Assembly: GCF_044324875.1 (NCBI RefSeq)
Contig: NZ_CP172185.1
Strand: one strand, 5' to 3'
DNA from: Escherichia coli
GTDB lineage: Bacteria > Pseudomonadota > Gammaproteobacteria > Enterobacterales > Enterobacteriaceae
Length of the DNA stretch: 64,000 nucleotides
Below, one piece after another: positions 1-31,252 of this stretch. Numbering within the stretch: position 1 is the stretch's first letter; every line of letters begins with the position of its first letter. The translations under genes were made by a program, and so were the position numbers. The notes under the pieces were generated by a model. That model searched no databases and had not been told where the DNA came from. It was given only the letters and a program-made list of their open reading frames with translations.

Positions 1-14
1 ACGTTCAGACAGAG

Positions 15-281: not shown

Positions 282-539
282 TTGGTACCGGGCTTAAAGG
301 TGTCCGGTGGCTGATTGAAAATGGTAAAAATATTTAGACGTCTATATGTCTGGATGTATTTACCACCCCCTAAATGTTTATGGGGGAAAGGGGGCGGTGT
401 TGATCTTTTAGCGCGAAGCGCTGGAACAGGCTTTTCCAAGAAGACGGGTACATAGGTTAGGTAGATCTCTGTAAAGGGGAAATACCAGAAGATGTGCGGA
501 CGCCTAGACGTCCAGATGTAAATGTTCAGAGGTGATTTT

Positions 540-2791: not shown

Positions 2792-2792
2792 G

Positions 2793-4621: not shown

Positions 4622-4739
4622 AGCAGGGCTGGAAAGTTTGAAAAACTGGTGAAGGAGTTTACTGCGTGATGGCTGAATTTTTTCTCTATTCTGCCACGCT
4701 TTTTTGCAACAGGTGTGACTGGGTGGAAGGAGGGGACAG

Positions 4740-5111
4740 ATGCGTCTGGAATTTGTTTTGCCTTACCCGCCGCCGGTGAACACTTACTGGCACCGTCGTG
4801 GTGGTAAGTATTTTGTATCAAAAGCGGGGGAACGTTATCGTCGTGATGTCAGGCTTATTGTTCGCCAGCAGCAACTGAGATTAAGGCTGACCGGAAGACT
4901 GGGTATAAAAATCATCGCAGACCCGCCAGACAACCGCCGCCGTGACCTGGACAACATACTGAAAGTACCGCTGGATGCGCTGACCCATGCGGGGCTGCTT
5001 ATTGATGACGAACAGTTTGATGAAATTTATATCGTGCGTGGCGTGTCAGTACCTGACGGGCGTCTGGGAGTGAAGATTTACGAAATTACAGGTGGTAACA
5101 ATGGCGCGTGA
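4740..5111 (+). CDS. rusA: Holliday junction resolvase RusA
   Basis: 123 aa; RusA-like sequence with conserved acidic residues ([16 protein letters not shown]); RBS GGAAGGAGGGGA upstream. Confidence 0.85.
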
Positions 5112-5526
5112 TATTCAGCAGGTTATGGAGCGATGGGGGGCATGGGTGGCGAATAACCACGAAGACGTGGAATGGTCATCCATTGCCGCCGGATTCAAGG
5201 GGCTGATACCGTCAAAAGTAAAATCGCGACCGCAGTGTTCCGATGATGACGCGATGATTATCTGTGGTTGTATGGCTCAACTGAACCGGAACAACAGTGA
5301 TTTGCATGAATTGCTGGTTGATTACTACGTGTGTGGGATGACGCTGATGAAGTTAGCAAGGAAACATGGATGTTCTGATACGCATATTGGAAAGCGTTTG
5401 CAAAAAGCTGAAGGAGTGGTTGATGGCATGTTGATGATGCTGGGAGTAAGACTTGAGATGGATCGGTATGTGAGCGTAAATTATTCGATGTGCCGTAAAA
5501 CTCCGTCCTTCAGGGCAGGGATATAA
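5101..5526 (+). CDS. Late-gene antiterminator Q-like protein
   Basis: About 141 aa, directly upstream of the tRNA/lysis region; N-terminus [15 protein letters not shown] resembles the short Q type of Stx-family lambdoid phages as recalled; Cys-rich. Confidence 0.6.
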
Positions 5527-5536
5527 GGCGTACAGG

Positions 5537-5566
5537 ATAAATAAAAGAACGGGCGCAAAGCGCCCA
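5537..5566 (-). terminator. Rho-independent terminator for the opposite-strand porin gene
   Basis: Hairpin GGGCGCAAAGCGCCC followed on the minus strand by a T-rich run. Confidence 0.55.
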
Positions 5567-5709
5567 AGTATAAACAACAAAAAACGGTAATAAATAACAG
5601 AAAGTCCGTTGGAAAAGTTAAGTACTGTCCAACGTTTTGCAGTGGCATGAGGGCACCACTTTATATGTCAGAAAAGTTTCACTCTCCCGACATATTCTTA
5701 CAAAACAAA

Positions 5710-6813
5710 TCAGAACTGATAAGTCAAACCAACAGCGACAATATCATCGGTTAATACATCAGTTCTTTCAGTGAATTGATTCTTATCAAGCAGGTTGATT
5801 TTATAGTCTACGTATGTAGACATATTTTTGTTGAAGTAATAAGCAGCACCGACTTCAATGAATTTTTCAATGTATCCGTCATTATGTTTTTCAGGGATAC
5901 CAGTTTTGGTGGAAAGGTCTTTGGCTTTCGACTGGATATAAGCAAGAGACGGGCGCAAACCAAAGTCGAACTGATACTGTGCAACTACAGCGAAATCTTC
6001 AGTTTTATTGGCTACACCGTTGTAGCCGCCGGGCGAGTACTTGATTGCGCGGGTATTACGTGTTTCACCATAAGTGGCTGCCAGGTACAGATTATTCGCG
6101 TCATATTTTACGCTGGTAGCCCACTGTTCAGCTTTTTTACCTTTACCAAAAGTCGTCGCTTCCTGTGCATTGGTGCGATCGGCTGCACCATATGCAGCTA
6201 CAAAACCAAAGCCTTCATATTCATAACTGACAGAGCCGCCAACACCGTCGCCGTTTGAAGTGCCTGCATTGTCACGCTCATTTTTACCCAGATACTGAAC
6301 CGCAAAGTTCAGTCCATCAACCAGACCGAAGAAGTCGGTATTACGGTAAGTGGCAACACCACCTACACGACCCACGAAGAAGTTATCCCCGTTAACAGAA
6401 CCAGGCCCAAATTCAGGGAGGACATCAGTATAGCTTAATGCGTCATACACCACGCCATAGTTACGACCATAATCCAGAGAGCCAATATTTTCTAGTTTCA
6501 GGCCAGCGTATGCCAGACGGGTTTTGTCTCCTGCAGAGCCATCTTTTTCTGCCTTGTTGCCTTTGAATTCATATTCCCATTGACCAAAACCAGTTAACTG
6601 ATTGTTGATTTGGGTTTCACCTTTGAATCCAAGACGGGCATAAGTTCCATCACCTTCTTCTTTGGCGTTAGAAGAAAAGTAATGTTTACCCACTACTTTG
6701 CCATATAAATCCAGTTTATTACTGTTTTTATTATATATTTCTGCTGCATTTGCAGACATTGCCAGAAATACTGATGCTGCTACAGCAGAAAGTGCCACTG
6801 TTAAATTTTTCAT
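5710..6813 (-). CDS. Outer membrane porin (OmpC/NmpC family) moron
   Basis: Signal peptide [29 protein letters not shown], porin-type beta-strand composition, C-terminal aromatic residue; same position and orientation as nmpC in DLP12-type prophages. Confidence 0.85.
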
Positions 6814-7411
6814 TTTTTATCCTCTGGTGGGAGTTAATTGGACGACAAAATGCTATCAGGATGAAAATTTAATTTCTGTGTATAATGTATACAAGGAAAA
6901 TTAAGGAGTCCGATTCTTTATATGTGACCACCATCACAAAATAAGAAGTCATGCAAGCTAATAAATAGATGGCTATCTTTCACTCAAAAAATTAAGATCA
7001 ATCTTTTTTATTAGAAGTGCTAAATATATTTAATTATTTGGGGTTGTGAGTTATTTATATAACCTTAATAAAGACATTACTTTTGAAGAAAAATACGTGC
7101 ATAGAAGAATGCATAATCTTTAATTACATCTTGCCAAGCGTCGCAACAATCCAGAGATTGTATGTGGGGTGAATCATGCAGCATGCAGGGTATGAACAAA
7201 CACTTTACGATCGTAAAAGTATGCATATCATGGTAAGAGTGGTTCCTACGCCACACAACTTAAACCCGCAGCCAGGCGGTTTTTTACATCGAAAATCTGC
7301 ACCGGACATTAAGCTCTTTGGCGGACCAGATAAGAGGTGCGCTTAGTTGGGTTTGTCGGGCTTTCTCTGAGATTTGCGGTATTAATCCCGTAACGTTATT
7401 ATGCTGCTCGA

Positions 7412-7487
7412 GGCCCTTTAGCTCAGTGGTGAGAGCGAGCGACTCATAATCGCAAGGGCGCTGGTTCAAATTCAGCAAGGGCCACCA
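7412..7487 (+). tRNA. tRNA with anticodon CAU, ileX/ileZ-like (tRNA-Ile2 reading AUA, or Met)
   Basis: Cloverleaf folds by hand: acceptor GGCCCTT/AAGGGCC, D-arm GCTC..GAGC, anticodon loop CTCATAA, T-arm GCTGG-TTCAAAT-TCAGC, 3' CCA; close to recalled E. coli ileX. Confidence 0.85.
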
Positions 7488-7488
7488 A

Positions 7489-7565
7489 CCGCTACTAGCT
7501 CATCAGGAAAGAGCGTCAACCCTTTAAGTTGAGTGCGCTAGGTTCGATTCCCCGCTGGCGGTCCA
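7489..7565 (+). tRNA. tRNA-like element, probably degenerate (arg-tRNA-like architecture)
   Basis: Acceptor 6/7 bp, good D-arm and perfect anticodon stem, canonical T-loop TTCGATT, but T-stem has 2 mismatches and loop CCTTTAA lacks U33; ends CCA. Confidence 0.35.
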
Positions 7566-7980
7566 GCGCCGACTTACCTCAGTCGGCAGAACAGTTTAGT
7601 TGTAACCATCAGGCCACCACTTCAATTCCGGTAGTCGGCACTAAATTTCCAAGCTCGTGCTCACGGCCTGCTTCATATCCGCGCCAGGTCCGTCGCGATT
7701 AAACCACAGGGCTTTTCAGGAGGGGCCACAGAGAGCGTCACACTGACCATTCCCTGTGGCTTGTGCTGAGATCCGGTCAGTGAAATTGTGCAAAGGGAAT
7801 CTTCGGGAGCTTTGGGCAGAATGTCAGTTATTGATGTTGACATCCTCCACACCCTGAAGGTCGGGGTTTTACGGCGCACTGGATAAAATACCTGAACAAA
7901 CAGCCTCTTCGTGCGGCTTTTTTATAACGAGATTCTGACTTGCTGCCGTCCGTAATGTCGGATGGCGGAGGTGAGGGACT

Positions 7981-8253
7981 ATGAGAATGGACGAACGATA
8001 CAGTAACGCTGCATACGGCAGCGCAGGACTTGTTGCGTTCTTTGCCAGCCTGTCACTGCAGGATTGGGGATTTATTATCGGCGTGGCGTTCAGTATCATT
8101 CTTGGCGTTCTTACTTATCGCCTTAACAAACGGGAGCAGGAAAAACGAACCCGCATATTGCTCGAAATTCTGGAACGAACTAATGCCGGTAATGTTCCGG
8201 CTACGGCACATGCTGTGGCTGAGATTGCGAAAAAGGCACCAAAAGAAATATGA
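7981..8253 (+). CDS. Holin (two predicted transmembrane segments; dual-start MRM motif)
   Basis: 90 aa, hydrophobic stretches LVAFFASLSL and FIIGVAFSIILGVLTY, charged C-terminus; SD GGAGGTGAGGG; immediately upstream of lysis genes. Confidence 0.6.
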   Translation: MRMDERYSNAAYGSAGLVAFFASLSLQDWGFIIGVAFSIILGVLTYRLNKREQEKRTRILLEILERTNAGNVPATAHAVAEIAKKAPKEI

Positions 8254-8409
8254 CGAATATCCCGGGAGTGAGGGGATAATATACCTTTTAACAAAATCCG
8301 GGAACATGAAACGCCCGGAACGTTTCATGAGGCATGCCCCGTGGGGAGCAGGGCATAACTGTGCGGAATAGCTTTCATTGTGATATCAATAATCACGGTA
8401 TTCAAAATA

Positions 8410-8787
8410 TTACGGGCCTGTGGGATCAGGTTGTTTTTTGTCTGATTCCAGAGGGAAGGGACGCTGTTTCGGTTCTCTGAACTTTAGTGATAATGAATTG
8501 AAAATCCTCATTTTTTGCTGCCATGCATAATGTCTGTCCCATGAACAGGGGGGGCTCAATTCTTCATTCACCCATGCGTTAATATCTTGTTTCAGGTGTT
8601 GAAGCATACGGGGTGTTAATGCACTCATAATAATATCCAGCGTTTTATGCGAGAGTTTACCGTAAGGGTCTGCAAGGATGCTGCTCGTTGCTTCGTTATT
8701 ATCCACCATAAGTGGAAGTAGCGCTGATTTAACTTTTTCTGTCATTAGTTGCAAAAATCTACTGCGCAAATTTTCTTTACTGTTCAT
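8410..8787 (-). CDS. Hypothetical protein (125 aa) on opposite strand between holin and endolysin
   Basis: Clean ORF in an otherwise plus-strand late operon; no recognised domain. Confidence 0.45.
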   Translation of the reverse strand: MNSKENLRSRFLQLMTEKVKSALLPLMVDNNEATSSILADPYGKLSHKTLDIIMSALTPRMLQHLKQDINAWVNEELSPPCSWDRHYAWQQKMRIFNSLSLKFREPKQRPFPLESDKKQPDPTGP

Positions 8788-8910
8788 TTCTGAAGCCTCA
8801 TCTGTTGTCGTTTGGTTTTCCTGAACGGGTATGTTTATGAGACATGCTGGTACTGGATTATATACCTGATATATCCAGGATTATAAACCTTTAGATCCTG
8901 ATAAATATAC

Positions 8911-9444
8911 ATGAACGCAAAAATCAGATACGGCCTGTCGGCTGCCGTTCTGGCGCTGATTGGTGCTGGCGCATCTGCTCCTCAGATACTTGATCAGTTT
9001 CTGGACGAAAAAGAGGGTAACCACACAACGGCATACCGCGATGGGTCCGGCATCTGGACCATCTGTCGGGGTGCCACGATGGTGGATGGAAAACCCGTTT
9101 TTCCCGGAATGAAGCTGTCGAAGGAAAAATGCGACCAGGTTAACGCTATTGAACGTGATAAGGCACTGGCATGGGTGGAGCGCAATATTAAAGTACCTCT
9201 GACCGAACCACAGAAAGCGGGTATTGCGTCATTCTGTCCCTATAACATTGGCCCCGGTAAGTGTTTCCCGTCGACGTTTTATAAGCGGCTTAATGCCGGT
9301 GATCGAAAAGGCGCCTGCGAGGCGATTCGCTGGTGGATAAAGGATGGTGGGCGTGACTGCCGTATCCGTTCAAATAACTGCTATGGACAGGTTATTCGTC
9401 GTGACCAGGAAAGCGCATTAGCCTGTTGGGGGATAGATCAGTGA
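8911..9444 (+). CDS. Endolysin, lysozyme with N-terminal signal-anchor-release (SAR) domain
   Basis: 177 aa; N-terminal hydrophobic [16 protein letters not shown]-x8-D-x5-T catalytic spacing ([16 protein letters not shown]). Confidence 0.85.
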
Positions 9445-9908
9445 GCAGAGTCGCCGCGATTATTTATGCTCTGGTTATCTGCATCATCGTCTGCCTGTCG
9501 TTGGCGGTCAATCATTACCGTGATAACGCCATAGCCTACAAAGAACAACGTGATAAAAAAGTCAGTGAGCTGAAGCAGGCGACCGCCACCATCGCTGACA
9601 TGCAGCAGCGTCAGCGTGATGTTGCTGCGCTCGATGCAAAATACACGAAGGAGTTAGCTGATGCGAAAGCTGAAAATGATGCTCTTCGGCGCAAGCTTGA
9701 TAATGGTGGCAGGGTGCTCGTCAAAGGAAAATGCCCTGTGCCATCCTCAGCCGAAACCTCCAGCGCCTCCGGCATGGGCAATGATGCCACCGTCGAACTC
9801 TCTCCAGTTGCTGGACGAAACGTTCTCGGTATCCGGGACGGAATTATCCGCGACCAGACAGCACTGAGAACGCTTCAGGAATACATCAGGACGCAATGCC
9901 TTCGATGA
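9441..9908 (+). CDS. Rz-like inner-membrane spanin (i-spanin)
   Basis: N-terminal TM segment [19 protein letters not shown] then coiled-coil-like region; probable GTG start overlapping endolysin stop. Confidence 0.65.
9661..9867 (+). CDS. Rz1-like outer-membrane lipoprotein spanin (o-spanin), embedded in Rz in +1 frame
   Basis: Lipobox MVAGCSS, proline-rich [11 protein letters not shown]; fully nested within Rz. Confidence 0.6.
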
Positions 9909-10082
9909 TAGCGATAATTTTACTCATCATCCTTCACATCTGGCTCTGTAGACAGGGTGGTGATCACTTCTGGAGTGAATCCAGATTAAACATCTCATTG
10001 CTGATGCTTGATATTGAGCATCTGGCGCGCGGTAAGGGGCTGCGTTGAGATAAGAGCCAGTCATTAAAAATACCTGGATTTA

Positions 10083-10108
10083 GCCTCGCATTCGCGGGGC
10101 TTTTTTAT
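10083..10108 (+). terminator. Rho-independent terminator downstream of Rz
   Basis: GCCTCGCATTCGCGGGGC hairpin followed by TTTTTTATT. Confidence 0.5.
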
Positions 10109-10540
10109 TGCCATTACAAAAGCCACTCCCTACAGAGTGGCTTTGATAATGGCTTATACCCTACACGGGATAACTTAACTGATATCCCTTTTAACGGATA
10201 AAGGTATTCAAGCCTGACACATCATGCGCTGTATCGTCGCTGTATTCCCGCATTAACCATGACCGTAGCCCGACGGGGAACTCCTTCTGCGCGAGTGTGC
10301 GGGAATAATCAAAAACGATGCACACCGGGTTTTTACCGCGCTAATGATTCGCGGGTTTGTCCCTCATGCTCGCCAGTCCGGTGCGATGGTGGAAGAAACC
10401 GGAAGCTGTATTACAGAAAGTGCTACTACTGTATCCTGATGCGATGTATGTAATGTGAGTCAGATAATGGCACAGGATGTGGTGATGTGGCAGTCTGGAA
10501 CACAGGATATATTGTCAGAATAAGACCCGTAGGAATAAAA

Positions 10541-12387: not shown

Positions 12388-14287
12388 CTCTACAGGAGCG
12401 ATAACGACTGGTCTCCTTGCGCTAAAAATTCCTGTACCCCTGACGACAGTTCAGTGGGCAGATCAACATTATTACCTGCCGAAAGAGTCGTCTTACACAC
12501 CAGGGCGGTGGGAAACATTGCCGTTTCAGGTTGCCATAATGAACAGTATGGGTAATGACCTGATCCGCACTGTTAATCTGATTAAATCTGCCCGTGTTGG
12601 TTATACAAAAATGCTGTTGGGAGTGGAGGCTTATTTTATTGAGCATAAATCCCGCAACAGTCTGCTTTTTCAGCCCACGGACTCAGCTGCTGAAGATTTT
12701 ATGAAATCTCATGTTGAGCCAACGATAAGGGATGTTCCTGCATTGCTGGAGCTGGCTCCATGGTTCGGAAGAAAACACCGCGATAATACGCTCACCCTGA
12801 AGCGTTTTTCCTCCGGTGTGGGGTTCTGGTGTCTGGGTGGTGCGGCAGCAAAAAATTACCGTGAAAAATCCGTGGATGTGGTCTGTTATGACGAGCTTTC
12901 CTCGTTCGAACCGGATGTTGAAAAAGAGGGCTCGCCAACCCTGCTGGGGGATAAGCGTATTGAGGGCTCTGTATGGCCAAAATCCATTCGCGGCTCGACG
13001 CCTAAAATCAAAGGCTCCTGCCAGATCGAAAAAGCCGCTAACGAGTCGGCACATTTCATGCGTTTTTATGTGCCCTGCCCGCACTGTGGGGAGGAGCAGT
13101 ATCTGAAATTTGGTGATGATGCCTCGCCTTTCGGTCTTAAGTGGGAGAAGGACAGCCCCGAAAGCGTTTTCTACCTTTGTGAGCATCATGGCTGTGTGAT
13201 CCATCAGTCTGAGCTTGACCAGAGTAACGGGCGGTGGATCTGTGAAAACACGGGGATGTGGACCCGTGACGGCCTGATGTTTTTCAGCGCCCGGGGTGAT
13301 GAAATTCCGCCGCCGCGCTCCATCACTTTCCATATCTGGACGGCGTACAGTCCGTTCACCACCTGGGTACAGATAGTCTATGACTGGCTGGATGCACTGA
13401 AAGATCCCAACGGCCTGAAAACCTTTGTGAACACCACGCTGGGCGAGACCTGGGAAGAGGCCGTGGGCGAAAAACTCGATCACCAGGTACTGATGGATAA
13501 GGTTGTGCGTTACACGGCGGCGGTGCCTGCCCGGGTGGTTTATCTGACGGCGGGCATTGACTCGCAGCGAAACCGTTTTGAGATGTATGTCTGGGGATGG
13601 GCTCCGGGAGAGGAAGCCTTTCTGGTGGATAAAATCATTATTATGGGGCGTCCCGATGAGGAAGAGACGCTGTTACGTGTGGATGCAGCGATCAACAAAA
13701 AATACTGCCATGCAGACGGAACCGAAATGACCATTTCCCGTGTCTGCTGGGACATCGGGGGGATCGATGGAGAAATCGTTTATCAGAGGTCAAAAAAACA
13801 CGGTGTTTTCCGGGTGCTGCCGGTAAAAGGCGCATCTGTCTATGGCAAGCCGGTGATCACCATGCCAAAAACCCGCAATCAGCGGGGCGTGTATCTGTGT
13901 GAAGTGGGCACGGACACCGCAAAAGAAATTCTCTATGCCCGTATGAAAGCCGCTCCCACGCCTGCGGATGAATCCACGTCGTATGCCATCCGTTTTCCTG
14001 ATGATCCGGAGATTTTTTCGCAGACAGAGGCGCAGCAACTGGTCGCGGAAGAGCTTGTGGAGAAGTGGGAAAAAGGAAAGATGCGTCTGCTGTGGGATAA
14101 CAAAAAGCGGCGTAACGAAGCGCTGGACTGCCTGGTGTATGCCTACGCGGCATTACGTGTGTCCGTGCAACGCTGGCAGCTTGATCTGGCTGTACTGGCA
14201 AAATCCCGGGAAGAAGAGACGACCCGGCCAACCCTTAAAGAACTGGCAGCGAAGCTGTCCGGAGGAGTGAATGGTTACAGTCGCTGA
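12359..14287 (+). CDS. A: Terminase large subunit (lambda gpA-like)
   Basis: Collinear with lambda A ([39 protein letters not shown]); start chosen by alignment (ORF track begins 12317). Confidence 0.9.
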
Positions 14288-19794: not shown

Positions 19795-20114
19795 GGGAGT
19801 GAGTATGTATATCCGGGGTATGGAAAATGCCATTGAAAACCTGAGCCGTATTAACCGCAGTGCGGTACCCGGTGCGGCGGCGATGGCCTTAAACCGGCTG
19901 GGTTCTGCAGTCACTGCGCAATCGGCATCACAGGTATCCCGTGAGGTCAAAATCCCACGGAAATTTGTCCGTGAAAGGATGAAGCTAAAAAAGGCCACAC
20001 CAAAAAATCAGTCTGTCCGGATCTAGACTGGCCCCCTGAATCTCCAGACAACCAGTATCACTTAAATAAGTGATAGTCTTAATACTAGTTTTTAGACTAG
20101 TCATTGGAGAACAG

Positions 20115-20480
20115 ATGATTGATGTCTTAGGGCCGGAGAAACGCAGACGGCGTACCACACAGGAAAAGATCGCAATTGTTCAGCAGAGCTTTGAACCGGG
20201 GATGACGGTCTCCCTCGTTGCCCGGCAACATGGTGTAGCAGCCAGCCAGTTATTTCTCTGGCGTAAGCAATACCAGGAAGGAAGTCTTACTGCTGTCGCC
20301 GCCGGAGAACAGGTTGTTCCTGCCTCTGAACTTGCTGCCGCCATGAAGCAGATTAAAGAACTCCAGCGCCTGCTCGGCAAGAAAACGATGGAAAATGAAC
20401 TCCTCAAAGAAGCCGTTGAATATGGACGGGCAAAAAAGTGGATAGCGCACGCGCCCTTATTGCCCGGGGATGGGGAGTAA
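20115..20480 (+). CDS. insC: IS2 transposase OrfA (InsC)
   Basis: [26 protein letters not shown]... recognised as IS2 InsC. Confidence 0.85.
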
Positions 20481-21343
20481 GCTTAGTCAGCCGTTGTCTC
20501 CGGGTGTCGCGTGCGCAGTTGCACGTCATTCTCAGACGAACCGATGACTGGATGGATGGCCGCCGCAGTCGTCACACTGATGATACGGATGTGCTTCTCC
20601 GTATACACCATGTTATCGGAGAGCTGCCAACGTATGGTTATCGTCGGGTATGGGCGCTGCTTCGCAGACAGGCAGAACTTGATGGTATGCCTGCGATCAA
20701 TGCCAAACGTGTTTACCGGATCATGCGCCAGAATGCGCTGTTGCTTGAGCGAAAACCTGCTGTACCGCCATCGAAACGGGCACATACAGGCAGAGTGGCT
20801 GTGAAAGAAAGTAATCAGCGATGGTGCTCTGACGGGTTCGAGTTCCGCTGTGATAACGGAGAAAAACTGCGAGTCACGTTCGCGCTGGACTGCTGTGACC
20901 GTGAGGCACTGCACTGGGCGGTCACTACGGGCGGCTTCAACAGTGAAACAGTACAGGACGTCATGCTGGGAGCGGTGGAACGCCGCTTCGGCAACGAGCT
21001 TCCGGCGTCTCCAGTAGAGTGGCTGACGGATAATGGTTCATGCTACCGGGCTAATGAAACACGGCAGTTTGCCCGGATGTTGGGGCTTGAACCGAAGAGC
21101 ACGGCGGTGCGGAGTCCGGAGAGTAACGGCATAGCAGAGAGCTTCGTGAAAACGATAAAGCGTGACTACATCAGTGTCATGCCCAAACCAGACGGGTTAA
21201 CGGCAGCAAAGAACCTTGCAGAGGCGTTCGAGCATTATAACGAATGGCATCCGCATAGTGCACTGGGTTATCGCTCGCCACGGGAATATCTACGGCAGCA
21301 AGCCAGTAATGGGTTAAGTGATAACAGGTGTCTGGAAATATAG
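20438..21343 (+). CDS. insD: IS2 transposase OrfB (InsD), expressed by -1 frameshift from OrfA
   Basis: 301-aa ORF with integrase-core-like region; overlaps insC in -1 frame. Confidence 0.85.
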
Positions 21344-21718
21344 GGGCAAATCCAGGATCGTGGTTAACCGGGGCGATTTTCCGGTGATCAAACTGGGTAA
21401 CGCCAGACTGCGACTGTCCAGGCGTAAACGTCGTCGAAAGGGCGAGCGTTCAGCCGAGAAAGGCGGAGGAAGTGTTCTTGTCGTGGGGAACCGCCGTATT
21501 CCGGGGGCTTTTATCCAGAGACTTAAAAACGGTCGCTGGCATGTTATGCAGCGGGAAGCAGGCCGAAATCGTTATCCTATTGATGTGGTGAAAATACCGA
21601 TGCAGGCTCCGCTGACGTCAGGGGTGCAGGAGAATATCACACGGTTGTACAGGGATAAGTTTCCCGCAGAACTGGCTGCCGCACTGAAACAGAAGATACG
21701 AATGGAGGTGAAAAAGCG

Positions 21719-23301: not shown

Positions 23302-23729
23302 ATTTTGTCCTGAGACTGGCGCGTGAGATGGGAAGACCCGACTGGCGCGCCATGCTGGCGGATATGTCATCAACGGAATATGCCGACTGGCATCAGTTTT
23401 ACCGTACGCATTATTTTCATGATGTGCTGCTGGATCAGCATTTTGCTGGGCTGACGTATACCGTGCTCAGCCTGTTTTTCAGCGATCCGGATATGCATCC
23501 GCTGGATTTCAGTCTGCTGAACCGGCGTGAGGCTGACGAAGAGCCTGAAGATGACGTGCTGATGCAGAAAGCAGCAGGGCTTGCCGGAGGGGTTCGTTTT
23601 GACCCTGCGGGGAATAAAGTCATCTGCATTGCCTCTGATGTGGAGGATATGACGGGGGATGGTGTCATGCTGATGACGATATCGGAAGGTATAGCAGGAG
23701 GTAGACGGTATGGCTCAACCGGTCAGTGA
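22897..23729 (+). CDS. Tail assembly chaperone G-T fusion via programmed -1 frameshift
   Basis: Slippery heptamer G GGA AAG at 23277-23283 in G frame; the -1 frame is open from there to 23729. Confidence 0.6.
23277..23283 (+). promoter_or_regulatory. Programmed -1 ribosomal frameshift slippery site GGGAAAG
   Basis: Same heptamer and frame register as the lambda G/GT site. Confidence 0.6.
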
Positions 23730-25077
23730 TCTTGTCGTTGATATGACGCTGGATGCCACCCGGTTCAGCGAACAGATCAAAAAGGTCAGGCAGCATTTTC
23801 AGCAGGTGGACAGTGATGCAGGAAAAACGGCTGTTGCTGTTGAGCAATCCATGTCCCGGCAGGCGGAAGCTGCCCGCCGTGCCGGGATATCCATCGGTCA
23901 GTATAAGGCTGCGATGCGCACTCTGCCCGCGCAGTTTACTGATATCGCCACGCAACTGGCCGGTGGTCAGAGTCCATGGCTGATCCTGTTGCAGCAGGGC
24001 GGTCAGGTGAAGGACTCCTTCGGCGGACTGATCCCCATGTTCCGGGGACTTGCGGGGGCCGTTTCGTTACCAGCTGTCGGGGTGGGGGCTTTGGCTGCAG
24101 CGACAGGAGCGCTGGCGTATGCCTGGTACCAGGGTGACTCAATCCTGTCTGATTTCAGTAAAACGCTCGTATTGTCCGGTAATCAGGCAGGACTGACGGC
24201 AGATCGTATGCTGGCCCTGTCCAGAGCCGGGCAGGCAGCAGGGCTGACGTTTAACCAGACCAGCGAATCACTCAGTGCACTGGTTAAGGCGGGGGTACGC
24301 GGTGAGGCTCAGATTGCATCCATCAGCCAGAGTGTGGCGCGTTTCTCCTCTGCATCCGGCGTGGAGGTGGACAGGGTCGCTGAAGCCTTCGGGAAGCTGA
24401 CCTCTGACCCGACATCGGGGCTGACGGCGATGGCGCGCCAGTTCCATAACGTGACGGCGGAGCAGATTGCGTATGTTGCTCAGTTGCAGCGTTCCGGCGA
24501 TGAAGCAGGGGCATTGCAGGCGGCAAACGAGGCCGCAACGAAAGGGTTTGATGACCAGACCCGTCGACTGAAAGAGAACATGGGCACACTGGAGACCTGG
24601 GCAGACAAAACTGCCGGAGCGTTCAGAAGCATGTGGGACGCTATTCTGGATATTGGTCGCCCGGAGTCCTCTGCTGACATACTGGATAAGGCGCAGAAAG
24701 CCTTTGATGAAGCAGATAAAAAATGGCAGTGGTATCAGAGCCGCAGTCACCGACGGGGTAAAACATCTTCATTTCGTGCGAATCTTCAGGGCGCGTGGGA
24801 TGACAGAGTAAATGCGCAACTGGGGCTTTCAGCGGCCACACTGCAGGCTGATCTTGAAAAAGCCAGTGAGATGGCTGCAAAATGGCATCTGAATCGATCG
24901 CAGTTTGGCATTCGAATCGATCATGATTTGGCATCCATCTCCGATCACAGTTTGGCATCACAATCGATCACGATTTGGCATGCTTCCGATCATTGATTGG
25001 CATCCTGCCAGTCACTCCGGGAATTAACTCTTTTCACCACAGTCTCCATTGCCGTGTTTAAACCAGTGGAGACGTCA

Positions 25078-26643
25078 ATGTCCAGAAAGAGAAAATCCAG
25101 GAGCACTATGGAAACCTGTTTTAAGATCCTTCAGCTCAAGTTCGACAAGAAGCTGACTAACCGTTGTATCGGACTGACGTTACACATCAGCGCCTCAACC
25201 GTTTTTGAGGTTCTTGCCCGCTTCAAAGCCTCTTCTCTGTCATGGCCATTACCTGCTGATATATCCCATGACACGCTGGAGAAACTCATTTTTCCGCCCA
25301 AAGACACCTTTGCATCAGAGCTTGTAATGCCTGACATGTTGTACTTCGATACGGAAATGAGAAAACCAGGTGTGACGCGGCAACTGTTGTGGATGGAATA
25401 CAAGGCACAGGCGGGTAACAAAGCGATGGGATACTCGCACTTCTGCCGTTGCTACCGGGAGTGGAAAAAAACGCGACGTCTCTCCATGCGCCAGGAGCAT
25501 CGTGCCGGCGAAAAGCTTTTTATCGACTTCTGTGGTCCTACGGTTCCTGTTATTAATCCGGACACCGGTGAGATACGCCGCGTGGCAATCTTCGTGGCCG
25601 TAATGGGGGCGTCCAACTATACCTACGTTGAAGCGTGCGAAGGTCAGGACATGATGTCATGGTTAAATGCCCACAGCCGTTGCCTGACCTTCCTGGGCGG
25701 CGTACCGAAGCTGCTCATCCCCGATAACCTCAGAAGCGCAGTGAAAAAGGCCGATCGATATGAGCCTGTCATCAACGACAGTTATCAGGCACTGGCTGAG
25801 CACTATGGCACGGTTATCATCCCGGCCCGACCACGCAAACCTAAAGATAAACCAAAAGCAGAAAACGGCGTCCTCATCGTTGAACGATGGCTTCTTGCCC
25901 GCATCCGTAATGAAACCTTCCACACGCTCAGGGCGCTGAATGCGCGCCTTAGGGAGTTACTGACAGACATGAATAACCGGCCAATGAAGGGGTACGGCAA
26001 TCAAACCCGTGCAGAACGCTTCCGCATACTGGATGCGCCAGCACTCTCTCCGCTGCCTCTGGCACCTTATGAATACACGGAATACAAAGCTGTGAAGGTT
26101 GGCCCTGACTACCACGTTGAATATGCCCGTCACTGGTACTCCGTTCCACACGAACTGGTCGGTCAGCGTCTGTCACTGAAGGCGGGGCAGTCGGTGGTAC
26201 AGCTCTGGCACAAGGGGCAGTGTGTGGCGCAACATCCGCGCAGCACACATGAATATAAACACACAACCAATCCGCTTCACATGCCAGAGCGCCACCGGCA
26301 GCACGGGACATGGACACCGGAACGCCTGATCGAGCAGGGAAAACGTACGGGCCCGTCCACAGGCCGGGTGGTTGAATCCATGCTGAAGGCAAAACCCCAT
26401 CCGGAACTGGCTTATCGTGCAGTTCTGGGGCTGCTGGCACTTCAGAAAAAATACGGCCCGGAACGGCTGGAAAAGGCCTGTTACGTTGCCCTGCACTATA
26501 ACGCCCCTGACAGACGCTTTATCGACAATCTGCTGCGTCACCATCGGGAGAACCTGGAGCTTCCATTATCCCGCCAGGGCGAACAACATCCGGCATATGC
26601 TTCAGAGCATGAAAACCTGCGTGGTCCGGGCTACTACCACTGA
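25078..26643 (+). CDS. istA: IS21-family transposase IstA
   Basis: N-terminal HTH-like region then integrase-core-like region; start uncertain (25078 or 25108). Confidence 0.8.
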   Translation: MSRKRKSRSTMETCFKILQLKFDKKLTNRCIGLTLHISASTVFEVLARFKASSLSWPLPADISHDTLEKLIFPPKDTFASELVMPDMLYFDTEMRKPGVTRQLLWMEYKAQAGNKAMGYSHFCRCYREWKKTRRLSMRQEHRAGEKLFIDFCGPTVPVINPDTGEIRRVAIFVAVMGASNYTYVEACEGQDMMSWLNAHSRCLTFLGGVPKLLIPDNLRSAVKKADRYEPVINDSYQALAEHYGTVIIPARPRKPKDKPKAENGVLIVERWLLARIRNETFHTLRALNARLRELLTDMNNRPMKGYGNQTRAERFRILDAPALSPLPLAPYEYTEYKAVKVGPDYHVEYARHWYSVPHELVGQRLSLKAGQSVVQLWHKGQCVAQHPRSTHEYKHTTNPLHMPERHRQHGTWTPERLIEQGKRTGPSTGRVVESMLKAKPHPELAYRAVLGLLALQKKYGPERLEKACYVALHYNAPDRRFIDNLLRHHRENLELPLSRQGEQHPAYASEHENLRGPGYYH

Positions 26644-26659
26644 CAGAAGGAACAACAGT

Positions 26660-27415
26660 ATGAGTGATAACCTGTTAAACAAACTGACCCAACTGAAACT
26701 CCCGGCGATGGCCGGGAGCCTGATACGGCAGCGGGAAACGCCTCAGACCTACGACGAACTGTCGTTCGAGGAAAGGCTGACGCTGCTGGTTGATGACGAG
26801 CTTCTGAGCAGGGAAAACAGCCGTGTGGCACGGTTGAGAAAAAATGCCGGCCTGAAATACCAGGCAACACCGGAAGGGCTGCGCTATCCGGCCTCAAGAG
26901 GTCTGCGGGCTGAACAGATGAGAGAACTGCTGAACGGCCACTACATAACCCACAGGAAAAACCTGCTGATAACCGGTCCGACAGGATGTGGCAAGAGCTG
27001 GATAGCCAATGCGCTGGGCGAACAGGCATGTCGACAGAAACACAGCGTCCGGTACTGTAGAACCGGGCGATTACTGGAACAACTGGCTCAGGGACGTGTT
27101 GATGGCAGCTGGCTGAAATATCTGAAACAGTTGCAAAAAATACAGGTTCTAATCCTGGACGATCTGGGGCTGGAACAGTTAAGTAACGCCCAGTGTAATG
27201 ACCTTCTGGAGCTCATAGAGGATCGTTACGGACAAAGCAGCACGATAGTGGTAAGCCAGTTCCCGGTAGATAAATGGCATGGTCTGATGGAGAACCCAAC
27301 AACAGCAGATGCCATCCTGGACAGACTGGTACATAACTCACACCGAGTGGTCCTTCAGGGAGAGTCACTGAGGAAAAATCCCCCGGTAGTGGAAAGCAGC
27401 GAAAAAACGCGTTAA
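26660..27415 (+). CDS. istB: IS21-family helper ATPase IstB
   Basis: Walker A GPTGCGKS, Walker B LILDDLG; 251 aa. Confidence 0.85.
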   Translation: MSDNLLNKLTQLKLPAMAGSLIRQRETPQTYDELSFEERLTLLVDDELLSRENSRVARLRKNAGLKYQATPEGLRYPASRGLRAEQMRELLNGHYITHRKNLLITGPTGCGKSWIANALGEQACRQKHSVRYCRTGRLLEQLAQGRVDGSWLKYLKQLQKIQVLILDDLGLEQLSNAQCNDLLELIEDRYGQSSTIVVSQFPVDKWHGLMENPTTADAILDRLVHNSHRVVLQGESLRKNPPVVESSEKTR

Positions 27416-28931
27416 AAAGCGGTAGAAAAAGTTAAGTTCCCGGTTGATCGAATGGATGCGAATCGCTGATCGGACTTCGATGCCAATCCGTGATCGAATA
27501 GAGCGGAATACGCAAGATGGCTGCAAAAGATCGTGCCGAATCAGAGGCTTCACGACTCAGGTACACTGAAGAGGCGCAGAAGGCTTACGAACGGCTGCAG
27601 ACACCGCTGGAAAAATATACCGCCCGTCAGGAAGAACTGAACAAGGCACTGAAAGACGGGAAAATCCTGCAGGCAGATTACAACACGCTGATGGCGGCGG
27701 CGAAAAAGGATTATGAAGCGACGCTGAAAAAGCCGAAACAGTCCGGCGTGAAGGTGTCTGCGGGCGATCGTCAGGAAGACAGTGCTCATGCTGCCCTGCT
27801 GACGCTTCAGGCTGAACTCCGGACGCTGGAGAAGCATGCCGGAGCAAATGAGAAAATCAGCCAGCAGCGCCGGGATTTGTGGAAGGCGGAGAGTCAGTTC
27901 GCGGTACTGGAGGAGGCGGCGCAACGTCGCCAGCTGTCTGCACAGGAGAAATCCCTGCTGGCGCATAAAGATGAGACGCTGGAGTACAAACGCCAGCTGG
28001 CGGAACTTGGCGATAAGATTGAACACCAGAAACGGCTGAACGAACTGGTACAGCAGGCGGAGAAATTCGCACAGCAGCAACGGGCAAAACGGGCCGCCAT
28101 TGATGCGAAAAGCCGGGGACTGACTGACCGGCAGGCAGCGCGGGAAGCCACGGAACAGCGCCTGAAGGAACAGTATGGCGATAATCCGCTGGCGCTGAAT
28201 AACGTCATGTCAGAGCAGAAAAAGACCTGGGCGGCTGAAGACCTGCTTCGCGGGAGCTGGATGGCAGGCCTGAAGTCCGGCTGGAGTGAGTGGGAAGAGA
28301 GCGCCACGGACAGTATGTCGCAGGTTAAAAGTGCTGCCACGCAGACCTTTGATGGTATTGCGCAGAATATGGCGGCGATGCTGACCGGCAGTGAACAGAA
28401 CTGGCGCAGCTTCACCCGCTCCGTGCTGTCCATGATGACAGAAATTCTGGTTAAGCAGGCAATGGTGGGGATTGTCGGGAGTATCGGCAGCGTCATTGGC
28501 GGTGCTGCCGGTGGTGGCGCATCAGTGTCAGGCGGTACAGCCATTCAGGCCGCTGCGGCAAAATTCCATTTTGCGACCGGGGGATTTACGGGAACCGGCG
28601 GCAAATATGAGCCAGCGGGGATTGTTCACCGTGGTGAATTTGTCTTCACGAAGGAGGCAACCAGCCGGATTGGTGTCGGCAACCTGTACCGCCTGATGCG
28701 GGGCTATGCGGAAGGTGGTTATGTGGGCGGTGCCGGAAGTCCGGCGCAGATGCGGCGGGCTGAAGGCATTAATTTTAATCAGAACAATCACGTGGTGATT
28801 CAGAACGACGGTACGAATGGTCTGCCAGGTCCACAGATGATGAAGGCAGTGTATGACATGGCCCGCAAGGGTGCCCGTGATGAAATTCAGGCACAGATGC
28901 GCGATGGTGGTCTGTTCTCCGGAGGTGGACG

Positions 28932-29261
28932 ATGAAAACCTTCCGCTGGAAAGTGAAACCCGGTATGGATGTGGCTTCGGCCCCTTCTGTAAGAAAGGTG
29001 CGCTTTGGTGATGGCTATTCCCAGCGAGCGCCTGCCGGGCTGAATGCCAACCTGAAAACGTACAGCGTGACGCTTTCTGTTCCCCGTTGGGAGGCCACGG
29101 CGCTGGAGTCGTTTCTGGCTGAGCACGGGGGCTGGAAGGCCTTTCTGTGGACGCCGCCTTATGAGTGGCGGCAGATAAAGGTGACCTGCGCAAAATGGTC
29201 GTCGCGGGTCAGTATGCTGCGTGTTGAGTTCAGCGCAGAGTTTGAACAGGTGGTGAACTGA
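28932..29261 (+). CDS. M: Minor tail protein M
   Basis: 109 aa; MKTFRWKVKPGMDVASAPSVRKVRFGDGYSQRAPAGLNANLKTYSVTL nearly identical to recalled lambda M. Confidence 0.9.
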   Translation: MKTFRWKVKPGMDVASAPSVRKVRFGDGYSQRAPAGLNANLKTYSVTLSVPRWEATALESFLAEHGGWKAFLWTPPYEWRQIKVTCAKWSSRVSMLRVEFSAEFEQVVN

Positions 29262-29959
29262 TGCAGGATATCCGGCAGGAAACACTGAATGAATGCACCC
29301 GTGCGGAGCAGTCGGCCAGCGTGGTGCTCTGGGAAATCGATCTGACAGAGGTCGGTGGCGAACGTTATTTTTTCTGTAATGAGCAGAACGAAAAAGGTGA
29401 GCCGGTCACCTGGCAGGAGCGGCAGTATCAGCCGTATCCCATTCAGGGGAGTGGTTTTGAACTGAATGGCAAAGGTACCAGTACGCGCCCCACGCTGACG
29501 GTTTCTAACCTGTACGGTATGGTCACCGGTATGGTGGAAGATATGCAGAGTCTGGTCGGCGGAACGGTGGTCCGGCGTAAAGTTTATGCCCGTTTTCTGG
29601 ATGCGGTGAACTTCGTCAACGGAAACCGTGACGCCGATCCGGAGCAGGAGGTGATCAGCCGCTGGCGCATCGAGCAGTGCAGTGATTTGACAGCGGTCAG
29701 CGCGACCTTTGTACTGGCCACGCCGACGGAAACGGACGGCGCTGTTTTTCCGGGACGTATTATGCTGGCCAACACCTGCACCTGGACCTATCGCGGCGAT
29801 GAGTGCGGTTATAGCGGTCCGGCGGTCGCGGATGAATATGACCAGCCGACGTCCGATATCACGAAGGATAAATGCAGCAAATGCCTGAGTGGCTGTAAGT
29901 TCCGCAATAACGTCGGCAACTTTGGCGGTTTTCTTTCCATTCACAAACTTTCGCAGTAA
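29261..29959 (+). CDS. L: Minor tail protein L
   Basis: 232 aa, same size as lambda L; Cys cluster CTWTYRGDECGYSG. Confidence 0.9.
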   Translation: MQDIRQETLNECTRAEQSASVVLWEIDLTEVGGERYFFCNEQNEKGEPVTWQERQYQPYPIQGSGFELNGKGTSTRPTLTVSNLYGMVTGMVEDMQSLVGGTVVRRKVYARFLDAVNFVNGNRDADPEQEVISRWRIEQCSDLTAVSATFVLATPTETDGAVFPGRIMLANTCTWTYRGDECGYSGPAVADEYDQPTSDITKDKCSKCLSGCKFRNNVGNFGGFLSIHKLSQ

Positions 29960-29963
29960 TTCC

Positions 29964-30707
29964 ATGACAGAGACAGAATCAGCGATTCTGGCGCACGCCC
30001 GGCGATGTGCGCCAGCGGAGTCGTGCGGCTTCGTGGTGAGAGCGCCGGAGGGGGAAAGATATTTCCCCTGCGTGAATATCTCCGGTGAGCCGGAGGCGTA
30101 TTTCCGGATGTCGCCGGAGGACTGGCTGCAGGCAGAGATGCAGGGTGAGATTGTGGCACTGGTCCACAGTCACCCCGGTGGTCTGCCCTGGCTGAGTTAG
30201 GCCGACCGGCGGCTGCAGGTGCAGAGTGATTTGCCGTGGTGGCTGGTCTGCCGGGGGGCGATTCACAAGTTCCGCTGTGTGCCGCATCTCACCGGGCGGT
30301 GCTTTGAGCACGGGGTGACGGACTGTTACACGCTGTTCCGGGATGCTTACCATCTGGCGGGAATTGAGATGCCGGATTTTCATCGCGGGGATGACTGGTG
30401 GCGTAACGGTCAGAATCTCTATCTTGACAATATGGAGGCGACTGGTTTTTACCGTGTCGCACTGACAGAGGCGCAGCCCGGCGACGTGCTGCTGTGCTGT
30501 TTTGGTTCATCGGTGCCGAATCATGCCGCCATTTACTGCGGCGACGGCGGGCTGCTGCACCATATTCCTGAACAACTGAGCAAACGAGAGAGGTATACCG
30601 ACAAATGGCAGCGACGCACACACTCCCTCTGGCGTCACCGGGCATGGCACGCATCTGCCTTTACGGGGATTTGCAACGATTTGGCCGCCGCATCGACCTT
30701 CGTGTGA
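29964..30707 (+). pseudogene. K: Tail tip assembly protein K with in-frame amber codon
   Basis: Aligns to lambda K throughout; TAG at 30198-30200 replaces the Glu codon in ...HPGGLPWLS*ADRRLQVQ...; frame continues unchanged after the stop. Confidence 0.8.
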
Positions 30708-31252
30708 AAACGGGAGCCGAAGCCATCCGGGCGCTGGCCACGCAGCTCCCTGCGTTTCGTCAGAAACTGAGCGACGGCTGGTATCAGGTGCGTATTGCCG
30801 GGCGTGATACAGGCGAAAACGAATTATCAGCCCGTCTTAATGAACCGCTGGCAAATGGTGCCGTGATCCACATCGTGCCGCGTCTGGCGGGAGCCAAACG
30901 TGGTGGTGTGTTTCAGGCAGTGCTGGGCGCGGCGCTGATTGCGGTGGCATGGTGGAACCCTGCAGGCTGGCTGGGGGCTGCGGCTTTATCGGGCATGTAT
31001 GCGGCAGGGGCCAGTATGGTGCTCGGTGGTGTGGCGCAGATGCTGGCACCGAAAGCCAAAACCCCCCGCACACAGACAACGGATAACGGCAAACAGAACA
31101 CCTATTTTTCTTCACTGGATAACATGGTTGCCCAGGGGAATGCTCTGCCCGTTCTGTACGGTGAAATGCGCGTGGGGTCACGGGTAATTTCGCAGGAGAT
31201 CAGCACAGCGGATGAGGGGGATGGCGTCCGGGTTGTGGTGATTGGTCGCTGA
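30605..31252 (+). CDS. I: Tail assembly protein I
   Basis: MAATHTLPLASPGMARICLYGDLQRFGRRIDLRVKTGAEAIRALATQ nearly identical to recalled lambda I N-terminus. Confidence 0.85.
   Translation: MAATHTLPLASPGMARICLYGDLQRFGRRIDLRVKTGAEAIRALATQLPAFRQKLSDGWYQVRIAGRDTGENELSARLNEPLANGAVIHIVPRLAGAKRGGVFQAVLGAALIAVAWWNPAGWLGAAALSGMYAAGASMVLGGVAQMLAPKAKTPRTQTTDNGKQNTYFSSLDNMVAQGNALPVLYGEMRVGSRVISQEISTADEGDGVRVVVIGR

What the first reader, a model, noticed from the sequence alone, without database searches (positions are those of the whole stretch)
29964..30707. Single amber codon in otherwise intact K
One nucleotide change (GAG to TAG as inferred from the lambda alignment) is the only lesion. In a host with an amber suppressor this gene would be expressed, similar to laboratory sus mutants.
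Basis: partly seen in the sequence, partly recalled or inferred. Interest (0 to 1): 0.3.

Follow-up and report, generated by a model that had tools for sequence, protein, structure and literature searches.

The report
Amber stop in prophage tail gene K
A single G-to-T change puts a premature stop codon in tail-assembly gene K of a lambda-like prophage that is already broken by two insertion sequences, so it is ordinary prophage decay rather than a conditional "sus"-type switch.

Summary
The ORF at 29964-30707 (+) is a 247-codon homologue of lambda tail tip assembly gene K (Prok-JAB plus NlpC/P60 domains). It has an in-frame TAG at 30198-30200, which is codon 79. The closest E. coli allele differs from it by this one base only (GAG to TAG), inside a 957-bp block that is otherwise identical.

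The stop falls between Ser78 and Asp81 of the JAMM zinc-binding motif. The product therefore loses that Asp and the whole NlpC/P60 domain.

The comparison with a laboratory sus mutant does not hold, for three reasons:
- IS2 sits in tail gene Z of the same prophage.
- An ISSso4-like IS21-family element sits in the tape-measure gene H.
- The window has no suppressor tRNA.

The TAG allele was found in no other public sequence searched. Every other conserved gene checked in the window is intact, so the assembly is clean and there is no general TAG recoding.

Verdict: a private nonsense mutation in a decaying prophage integrated in mlrA (yehV). A base-call error cannot be excluded without reads. 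Interest is low.

The parts
29964..30707 (+). Tail tip assembly gene K (Prok-JAB + NlpC/P60, 247 codons), a pseudogene because of one nonsense codon
   Evidence: With codon 79 restored, Pfam gives Prok-JAB at residues 4-98 (52.3 bits, cut-off 25) and NLPC_P60 at 114-224 (45.3 bits, cut-off 23). It is 99.9% identical to the intact RefSeq 'C40 family peptidase' genes.
30198..30200 (+). Amber codon TAG (codon 79), GAG in all relatives; the mutated base is T at 30198
   Evidence: The exact 26-mer with TAG has 0 hits in viral, genome-representative and metagenome collections. The GAG version has 97 viral-contig hits.
29964..30200 (+). Predicted truncated product of 78 aa: an incomplete JAB domain that keeps E19, H68, H70 and S78 but lacks D81
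30219..30707 (+). Downstream in-frame ORF (GTG start, 162 aa) holding the whole NlpC/P60 domain with C121, H187 and H199. It would be made only by re-initiation. Its Shine-Dalgarno match is weak.
29261..29959 (+). Gene L (minor tail protein), intact. Its stop lies 4 nt before the K start, and K has no Shine-Dalgarno sequence of its own.
30605..31252 (+). Gene I (tail assembly protein, ubiquitin-like N-terminal domain), intact. It overlaps the 3' end of K and has its own strong Shine-Dalgarno sequence.
20024..21354 (+). IS2 (1331 bp) inserted in tail gene Z, flanked by the 5-bp duplication GGATC. The Z fragments lie at 19805-20023 and 21355-21716.
   Evidence: NCBIfam 'IS2 transposase TnpB' 713 bits. 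RefSeq copies are named 'IS3-like element IS2 family'.
24867..27515 (+). IS21-family element (ISSso4-like; istA and istB) inserted in the tape-measure gene H. The H fragments lie at 23710-24866 and about 27516-28935.
   Evidence: It is 99.7% identical over 2650 nt to a copy in E. coli MS 200-1 whose istB is annotated 'IS21-like element ISSso4 family'.

Best explanation
This is a spontaneous G-to-T transversion at 30198 that turned Glu79 (GAG) of the tail tip assembly gene K into an amber stop.

Shown:
- The gene lies in the L-K-I-J tail-tip block of a lambda-like prophage integrated in the host gene mlrA (yehV).
- The stop falls inside the N-terminal JAB/MPN+ metalloprotease domain, between Ser78 and Asp81 of the H-x-H-x7-S-x2-D motif.
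- Two other essential tail genes of the same prophage are broken: Z by IS2 and H by an IS21-family element.
- The TAG allele is private to this genome among everything searched.

Inferred:
- Translation ends after 78 residues. The product lacks a zinc ligand and the whole C-terminal NlpC/P60 (C40) peptidase domain, so it is a null or near-null allele.
- Lambda gpK is a non-virion factor required for tail assembly, so on its own this lesion would block tail formation in a suppressor-free host.
- Selection on tail function is already gone or going, so the nonsense change is neutral decay.
- Any residual K function for this element would have to come from co-resident lambdoid prophages or from low-level read-through.
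For: - Single-base difference from an otherwise identical, widely distributed intact allele.
- Domain architecture and position of the stop.
- E19, H68, H70, S78, D81, C121, H187 and H199 are invariant or nearly so in 51 homologues of 33-59% identity.
- Full-length two-domain proteins of 220-270 aa are the rule among distant relatives and in isolated, viable lambdoid phages.
- 78 of 79 full-length K copies in IMG/VR proviruses are uninterrupted.
- Every head and tail gene from nu1 to J is full length against NZ_OY754357.1, except Z (split), H (split) and K (one stop).
- IS identities. A third IS, of the IS66 family, lies at 38287-39825.
- Neither IS junction occurs in any of 5,426 complete E. 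coli genomes, and the TAG 26-mer occurs nowhere else.
- The assembly looks clean. Ten complete host genes (btsS to the DUF4132 gene at 59285-63043) and the early and lysis genes align end to end without frameshift or stop.
- gpK is required for tail assembly but absent from virions (PMC12617516, PMC10721106).
- Lambdoid prophages of E. coli commonly carry frameshifts, deletions and IS insertions, and their morphogenetic defects can be complemented by co-resident prophages (PMC2669165). E. coli genomes carry a median of 3 K homologues.
Against: - No read data, so a consensus base error cannot be excluded.
- The order of the three tail lesions is unknown. If the K mutation came first it would have been the inactivating event rather than neutral decay.
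- The source genome was not found in any collection, so the allele could not be checked in sister isolates.
- Loss of K function is inferred from domain logic and classical lambda genetics, not measured.
Confidence: 0.8

Rival explanations
1. Sequencing or assembly artefact: the true base at 30198 is G and K is intact.
For: The change is a single base that occurs in no other public sequence. The flanking 957 bp are identical to intact alleles. K is a multi-copy repeat in E. coli genomes (median 3 copies), and assemblers do break inside it: contigs L003-L005 end at codon 78/79. Mis-polishing from a paralogue is therefore conceivable.
Against: No known paralogue carries T here that could have been mis-mapped: the GAG 26-mer has 97 viral-contig hits and the TAG 26-mer none, so cross-mapping would yield G, not T. 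The site is not in a homopolymer. The rest of the window shows no indel or stop noise in more than 35 genes compared with relatives.
Confidence: 0.1
2. Suppressor-dependent (sus-like) gene: the host carries an amber suppressor tRNA, so full-length K is made and the TAG is tolerated or nearly neutral.
For: Position 79 tolerates many residues, including Ser, Gln, Leu and Lys, so a suppressed protein should work. A TAG also occurs in a dubious 58-codon ORF at 10341-10343 on the minus strand.
Against: The window has no CTA-anticodon tRNA. The second TAG lies in an ORF that carries TAA in other strains and is not annotated there, so it is not evidence. No other conserved gene in the window has an in-frame TAG. 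Even with K restored, the phage lacks Z and H, so nothing selects for conditional expression.
Confidence: 0.03
3. Functional split: ribosomes terminating at 30200 re-initiate at GTG 30219, 16 nt beyond the stop codon, and make a 162-aa NlpC/P60-only K that still supports tail-tip assembly. This would resemble the NlpC/P60-only K versions seen in some prophages.
For: The ORF at 30219-30707 holds the whole NlpC/P60 domain with its catalytic C121, H187 and H199. The restart codon is close to the stop. Iyer et al. 2006 report K versions that have only the NlpC/P60 domain (PMC1779556).
Against: The Shine-Dalgarno match before GTG 30219 is weak (-5.0 kcal/mol, against -6.8 to -10.8 for I, L, J and M). 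The two-domain form is conserved down to about 35% identity. Independent re-sequencing shows that real lambda also has the full JAB domain. Iyer et al. themselves suggest the NlpC/P60-only versions are degenerate prophage forms. With Z and H broken there is no tail assembly left to support.
Confidence: 0.05
4. Programmed read-through or reassignment of TAG in this phage.
For: None beyond the presence of the codon. None of the eleven late-gene stop codons inspected is TAG, which is not significant.
Against: Only one of more than 20 conserved prophage genes carries an in-frame TAG. All relatives have GAG. There is no suppressor tRNA. The host is E. coli, which uses the standard code.
Confidence: 0.01

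Closest known systems
Bacteriophage lambda gene K / gpK (tail tip assembly protein K; TAPK of Iyer, Burroughs and Aravind 2006; RefSeq 'C40 family peptidase')
   Same: Same position between L and I in the tail-tip block. About 88-91% protein identity to lambda and 94.7% DNA identity to lambda-like isolates. Same JAB + NlpC/P60 architecture with all motif residues encoded.
   Different: Interrupted by TAG at codon 79, so the predicted product is a 78-aa fragment. The lambda reference record annotates only 199 aa because it lacks one G, but re-sequenced lambda strains have the full 247-codon frame.
Laboratory suppressor-sensitive (sus/amber) mutants of lambda, e.g. K amber mutants from Campbell's sus collection (own knowledge)
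   Same: One UAG in an essential late gene, at a position where the residues inserted by suppressors should be tolerated.
   Different: It is not in an otherwise viable phage: Z and H are disrupted by IS elements. There is no evidence of a suppressor host. It arose in a chromosomal prophage rather than by selection for conditional lethality.
Defective lambdoid prophages of E. coli, such as the Sp prophages of O157:H7 Sakai (PMC2669165)
   Same: A lambda-like morphogenesis block, integration at mlrA/yehV (a known lambdoid site, PMC8309913), and multiple independent lesions: IS insertions plus a point mutation. Head, packaging, lysis and replication genes are kept.
   Different: A different prophage and host lineage. 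No stx or effector gene was seen in the window. The particular lesions are private to this genome.

Membership tests
Lambda gpK / TAPK family (Prok-JAB + NlpC/P60 tail tip assembly protein) | N-terminal Prok-JAB (MPN+) domain above the Pfam gathering score | tested here: met
   PF14464, 52.3 bits against cut-off 25, residues 4-98, on the conceptual translation with codon 79 restored
Lambda gpK / TAPK family (Prok-JAB + NlpC/P60 tail tip assembly protein) | C-terminal NlpC/P60 (C40) domain above the Pfam gathering score, with the Cys-His-His catalytic residues | tested here: met
   PF00877, 45.3 bits against cut-off 23, residues 114-224. C121, H187 and H199 are encoded, and they are invariant (H187, H199) or nearly so (C121, 50 of 51) in 51 homologues.
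Lambda gpK / TAPK family (Prok-JAB + NlpC/P60 tail tip assembly protein) | JAMM motif E...H-x-H-x7-S-x2-D | tested here: met
   E19, H68, H70, S78 and D81 are all encoded in frame, but D81 lies beyond the stop
Lambda gpK / TAPK family (Prok-JAB + NlpC/P60 tail tip assembly protein) | Gene order M-L-K-I-J in a lambda-type tail module | tested here: met
   tblastn with lambda and E. coli prophage proteins; Pfam Phage_tail_L and Lambda_tail_I on the neighbours
Lambda gpK / TAPK family (Prok-JAB + NlpC/P60 tail tip assembly protein) | Uninterrupted reading frame, i.e. a functional member | tested here: not met
   TAG at codon 79. By descent it is a member of the family, but as a pseudogene.
Suppressor-sensitive (sus/amber) conditional-lethal phage mutant | A single UAG in an essential gene at a position that tolerates substitution | tested here: met
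Suppressor-sensitive (sus/amber) conditional-lethal phage mutant | The rest of the phage genome is functional, so that suppression restores growth | tested here: not met
   IS2 in Z and an IS21-family element in H
Suppressor-sensitive (sus/amber) conditional-lethal phage mutant | A host or phage tRNA with anticodon CUA | tested here: inconclusive
   None in the 64-kb window: only tRNA-Met/Ile(CAT) and tRNA-Lys(TTT). The rest of the host genome is not available.
Suppressor-sensitive (sus/amber) conditional-lethal phage mutant | Plating on su+ hosts but not on su- hosts | not testable with these tools
   Requires an experiment
Phage with reassigned or recoded TAG | Many in-frame TAG codons across conserved genes, plus a suppressor tRNA | tested here: not met
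   Only K among more than 20 conserved prophage genes has one. There is no CTA tRNA.
IS2 (IS3 family) | 1331-bp element, 5-bp target duplication, imperfect terminal inverted repeats, IS2 transposase | tested here: met
   Element at 20024-21354 flanked by GGATC. Inverted repeat 20033-20065 / 21314-21346. NCBIfam IS2 TnpB 713 bits against cut-off 597.
IS21 family (ISSso4-like) | istA transposase plus istB helper ATPase between terminal repeats, with near-identity to annotated copies | tested here: met
   NCBIfam transpos_IS21 284 bits against cut-off 160. Pfam IstB_IS21 204 bits. 99.7% identity over 2650 nt to an annotated ISSso4-family copy. The target duplication could not be defined.

The most novel reading that the evidence does not exclude
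The source strain carries a natural amber suppressor tRNA, or supports efficient re-initiation at GTG 30219. In that case the amber K allele would still supply K function, for example in trans to other lambdoid prophages of the cell, and would be a naturally occurring conditional tail-assembly allele rather than a dead gene.
Probability: 0.04. Interest if true: 0.3.

Novelty: already known. Interest (0 to 1): 0.07.

Why it matters
It matters little beyond annotation. K should be flagged as a pseudogene and the prophage as defective in tail formation, with three independent lesions in Z, H and K. This is one more example of how lambdoid prophages in E. coli decay through IS insertion and point mutation while their head, packaging, lysis and replication genes stay intact. 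If the strain were shown to carry an amber suppressor, this would be a small natural analogue of laboratory sus genetics, but nothing here points that way.

Tried and rejected
1. Finding the source assembly or sister strains by exact-protein look-up.
- The 78-aa N-terminal fragment found only K genes cut off by contig ends, and where those contigs reach the codon they begin it with G (GA-/G-), as in GAG, not T.
- The 162-aa C-terminal ORF, the H 5' fragment and J are not on record.
- The I protein led to a collapsed contig with an intact K.
- Many of my longest-ORF look-ups of host proteins probably failed only because of start-codon choice.

2. Searching for the TAG allele elsewhere. There were 0 hits in viral, genome-representative and metagenome collections.

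3. Searching for genomes that share the H::IS21 or Z::IS2 junction, to find close relatives. There were none among 5,426 complete E. coli genomes.

4. A second in-frame TAG (10341-10343, minus strand) briefly suggested a suppressor background. It was rejected: the 58-codon ORF has AAA, TAA or TAG at that codon in different strains and is unannotated in the TAA strains.

5. The idea that lambda itself lacks the N-terminal part of the JAB domain, which would have made the domain dispensable. It was rejected: the 1982 reference lacks one G that independently sequenced lambda strains have.

6. TAG recoding was rejected.

7. The exact target duplication of the IS21-family element could not be settled.

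Full report
**1. The observation**

The + strand has ATG at 29964, directly after the TAA of the upstream gene (29957-29959), and an ORF frame that runs to TGA at 30705-30707 (744 nt, 247 codons). Its only internal stop is TAG at 30198-30200, codon 79.

A megablast against 5,426 complete E. coli genomes found K homologues in 4,373 of them, with a median of 3 copies per genome. All the best hits are annotated as an intact 'C40 family peptidase'. The best hit, NZ_CM148325.1 (protein WP_072721459.1), differs from the window by one base in 744, G instead of T at 30198, so GAG(Glu) became TAG. That base is also the only difference across 29962-30918, whereas the flanks are about 96% identical.

About 4% of all possible single-base changes in this gene create a stop and 2% create TAG, so one such event is not statistically remarkable.

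**2. What the gene is**

- With codon 79 restored, the protein matches Pfam Prok-JAB (residues 4-98) and NLPC_P60 (114-224), both above their gathering scores.
- Its neighbours are Phage_tail_L upstream and Lambda_tail_I downstream. tblastn with lambda proteins lays out nu1-A-W-B-C-D-E-FII-Z-U-V-G-T-H-M-L-K-I-J in lambda order.
- It is therefore the homologue of lambda tail tip assembly gene K.
- According to recent structural papers, gpK is required for tail assembly but is not detected in virions (PMC12617516, PMC10721106).
- A search of 1.84 billion representative proteins gave 2,774 relatives. Those at 35-60% identity are almost all 220-270 aa and align over both domains.
- In an alignment of 51 of them, H68, H70, D81, H187 and H199 are invariant, and E19, S78 and C121 are nearly so.

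**3. What the stop does**

Codon 79 lies between S78 and D81 of the JAMM motif (HSHPGGLPWLS-E-AD). Termination there gives a 78-residue fragment without the Asp ligand and without the whole NlpC/P60 domain. By inference this is a null allele.

Position 79 itself is free to vary: the 51 homologues show E, D, S, P, G, T, I, N, Q, M, L, A, H, K and C. Insertion of Ser, Gln, Leu or Lys by a classical amber suppressor should therefore give an active protein.

K has no Shine-Dalgarno sequence of its own and starts 4 nt after the stop of L, so it is probably translated by coupling. The nearest in-frame restart codon after the stop is GTG 30219. It has only a weak Shine-Dalgarno match (-5.0 kcal/mol, against -6.8 to -10.8 for I, L, J and M). 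A 162-aa NlpC/P60-only product is possible but unlikely to be abundant. Gene I (30605-31252) has its own strong ribosome-binding site, so it should not depend on translation of K. That last point is inference.

**4. Context: the prophage is not otherwise intact**

I compared every late gene with an intact relative, NZ_OY754357.1. Genes nu1, A, W, B, C, D, E, FI, FII, U, V, G, T, M, L, I and J align end to end without stops. There are three exceptions.

- **Z is split** (19805-20023 and about 21351-21716) by a 1331-bp IS2 at 20024-21354. The element is flanked by the 5-bp duplication GGATC and has imperfect terminal inverted repeats. Its transposase scores 713 bits on the NCBIfam IS2 TnpB model.
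- **H, the tape-measure gene, is split** (23710-24866 and about 27516-28935) by a 2.65-kb IS21-family element with istA and istB. It is 99.7% identical to a copy in E. coli MS 200-1 whose istB is annotated as ISSso4 family.
- **K carries the amber codon.**

A third IS, an IS66-family transposase at 38287-39825 on the minus strand, lies beyond the tail-fibre genes.

The replication, antitermination and lysis genes in 1-10400 are intact. The prophage ends at about 43740 inside the host gene mlrA (yehV), of which only codons 1-22 remain (43806-43741). The ten complete host genes checked after that point, btsS to the DUF4132 gene at 59285-63043, are full length with no frameshift or stop. yehV is a known lambdoid integration site (PMC8309913).

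So the assembly is clean, and the element is a typical multiply defective lambdoid prophage of the kind catalogued in E. coli O157 Sakai. In that strain frameshifts, deletions and IS insertions are common, and morphogenetic defects can be complemented by co-resident prophages (PMC2669165).

**5. Is the allele seen anywhere else?**

- The 26-mer CCCTGGCTGAGTTAGGCCGACCGGCG has no match in IMG/VR, in one genome for each of 100,044 species, or in JGI metagenome contigs. The GAG version matches 97 IMG/VR contigs.
- In those contigs, 78 of 79 full-length K copies are uninterrupted. These loci were selected through the GAG pattern, so they say nothing about variation at codon 79.
- Isolated, viable lambdoid phages also carry the intact 744-nt gene.
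- Neither IS junction exists in any complete E. coli genome.
- All three tail lesions are therefore private to the source lineage, which I could not locate in the collections.

**6. Suppressor and recoding**

ARAGORN finds two tRNA genes in the window: CAT at 7412-7487, which is annotated tRNA-Ile in a relative, and TTT (Lys) at 7489-7565. Neither has a CTA anticodon. No other conserved gene has an in-frame TAG.

One further TAG (10341-10343, minus strand) interrupts a 58-codon 'hypothetical protein' ORF. Other strains have AAA or TAA at that codon, and the TAA strains have no gene annotated there. The ORF is dubious and that TAG carries no weight.

**7. Verdict**

The most likely reading (about 0.8) is a genuine, recent, private nonsense mutation in a prophage whose tail module is already wrecked by, or decaying alongside, two IS insertions. 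In other words it is neutral decay.

A consensus base error remains possible (about 0.1) and needs reads to exclude. It is not favoured: no known paralogue has T at this site, and the window shows no other sequence noise.

A suppressor-dependent or re-initiation-dependent functional K is not excluded but has no positive support.

Its interpretation is partly supported: K would be suppressible, but this is not a sus-like conditional phage. The finding is ordinary, and its novelty is 'already known'.

**8. Side result**

The lambda reference (J02459 / NC_001416) annotates K as 199 aa. The record reads GGAGGC-TATTTCC where this window, all relatives and several independently sequenced lambda stocks have GGAGGCGTATTTCC (KT232076, LC730321, PV340536, DE3, lambda imm21 and imm434). 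This puts the first 47 codons of the JAB domain out of frame in the reference. It looks like an error in the 1982 sequence rather than biology. It affects codon numbering in any 'lambda alignment'.

Noticed in passing
window 20024-21354 (Z fragments at 19805-20023 and 21355-21716): A complete 1331-bp IS2 with the 5-bp target duplication GGATC interrupts tail gene Z. This junction is absent from 5,426 complete E. coli genomes. The copy is only about 98% identical to the best-ranked IS2 matches listed.
   Followed up: yes
window 24867-27515 (H fragments at 23710-24866 and about 27516-28935): An ISSso4-like IS21-family element (istA, istB) interrupts the tape-measure gene H. The 14 nt AGATGGCTGCAAAA at the left tip of the IS (24869-24882) recur in H immediately right of the IS (27515-27528). 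The exact border and target duplication are therefore ambiguous. The insertion may have landed in a sequence that resembles the element's own end.
   Followed up: partly
window 38287-39825 (-): An IS66-family transposase (457 bits) lies just beyond the tail-fibre assembly gene. It is the third IS in the prophage. Its borders, and what it interrupts, were not determined.
   Followed up: no
window 43741-43806 (-): Only codons 1-22 of the host regulator gene mlrA (yehV) remain next to btsS. The prophage is integrated in mlrA, a classical lambdoid (Stx-phage) attachment site. The left end with the integrase lies outside the window.
   Followed up: partly
L006 (lambda NC_001416) about 14265-14270, aligned to window 30094-30100: The lambda reference lacks one G present in this window, in all relatives and in independently sequenced lambda stocks. 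This puts the first 47 codons of K out of frame and explains the 199-aa annotation. It is probably an error in the 1982 sequence.
   Followed up: partly
window 10341-10343 (-), in the ORF at 10191-10367 (-): There is a second in-frame TAG, at codon 9 of a 58-codon 'hypothetical protein' ORF between the lysis genes and nu1. Other strains have AAA or TAA there, and the TAA strains carry no annotation. It is probably not a real gene.
   Followed up: yes
window 7412-7565 (+): Two adjacent phage-borne tRNA genes lie upstream of the lysis genes: CAT (annotated tRNA-Ile in a relative) and TTT (Lys). By my reading, the Lys tRNA anticodon loop is CCTTTAA, with C rather than the usual U at position 33.
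   Followed up: no
window 5710-6813 (-): A prophage-encoded OmpF/OmpC-like porin (367 aa) sits between the Q-like antiterminator and the tRNAs. It is only 79% identical to the porin of the otherwise closest prophage and falls below the NCBIfam equivalog cut-offs.
   Followed up: no
L003 10001-10236, L004 10001-10234, L005 404-638: Three unrelated public contigs end within 2 nt of codon 78/79 of K. This is explained by assembly breaks inside a multi-copy prophage gene, together with the exact-sequence look-up selecting exactly such fragments. Where the codon's first base is present it is G, not T.
   Followed up: yes
window 34007-34332 (within J, 31313-34855) and 36117-37445: The C-terminal third of J contains two direct repeats of about 152 nt (34007-34158 and 34181-34332) and a duplicated [11 protein letters not shown] peptide. 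The side tail-fibre gene is full of collagen-like repeats.
   Followed up: no
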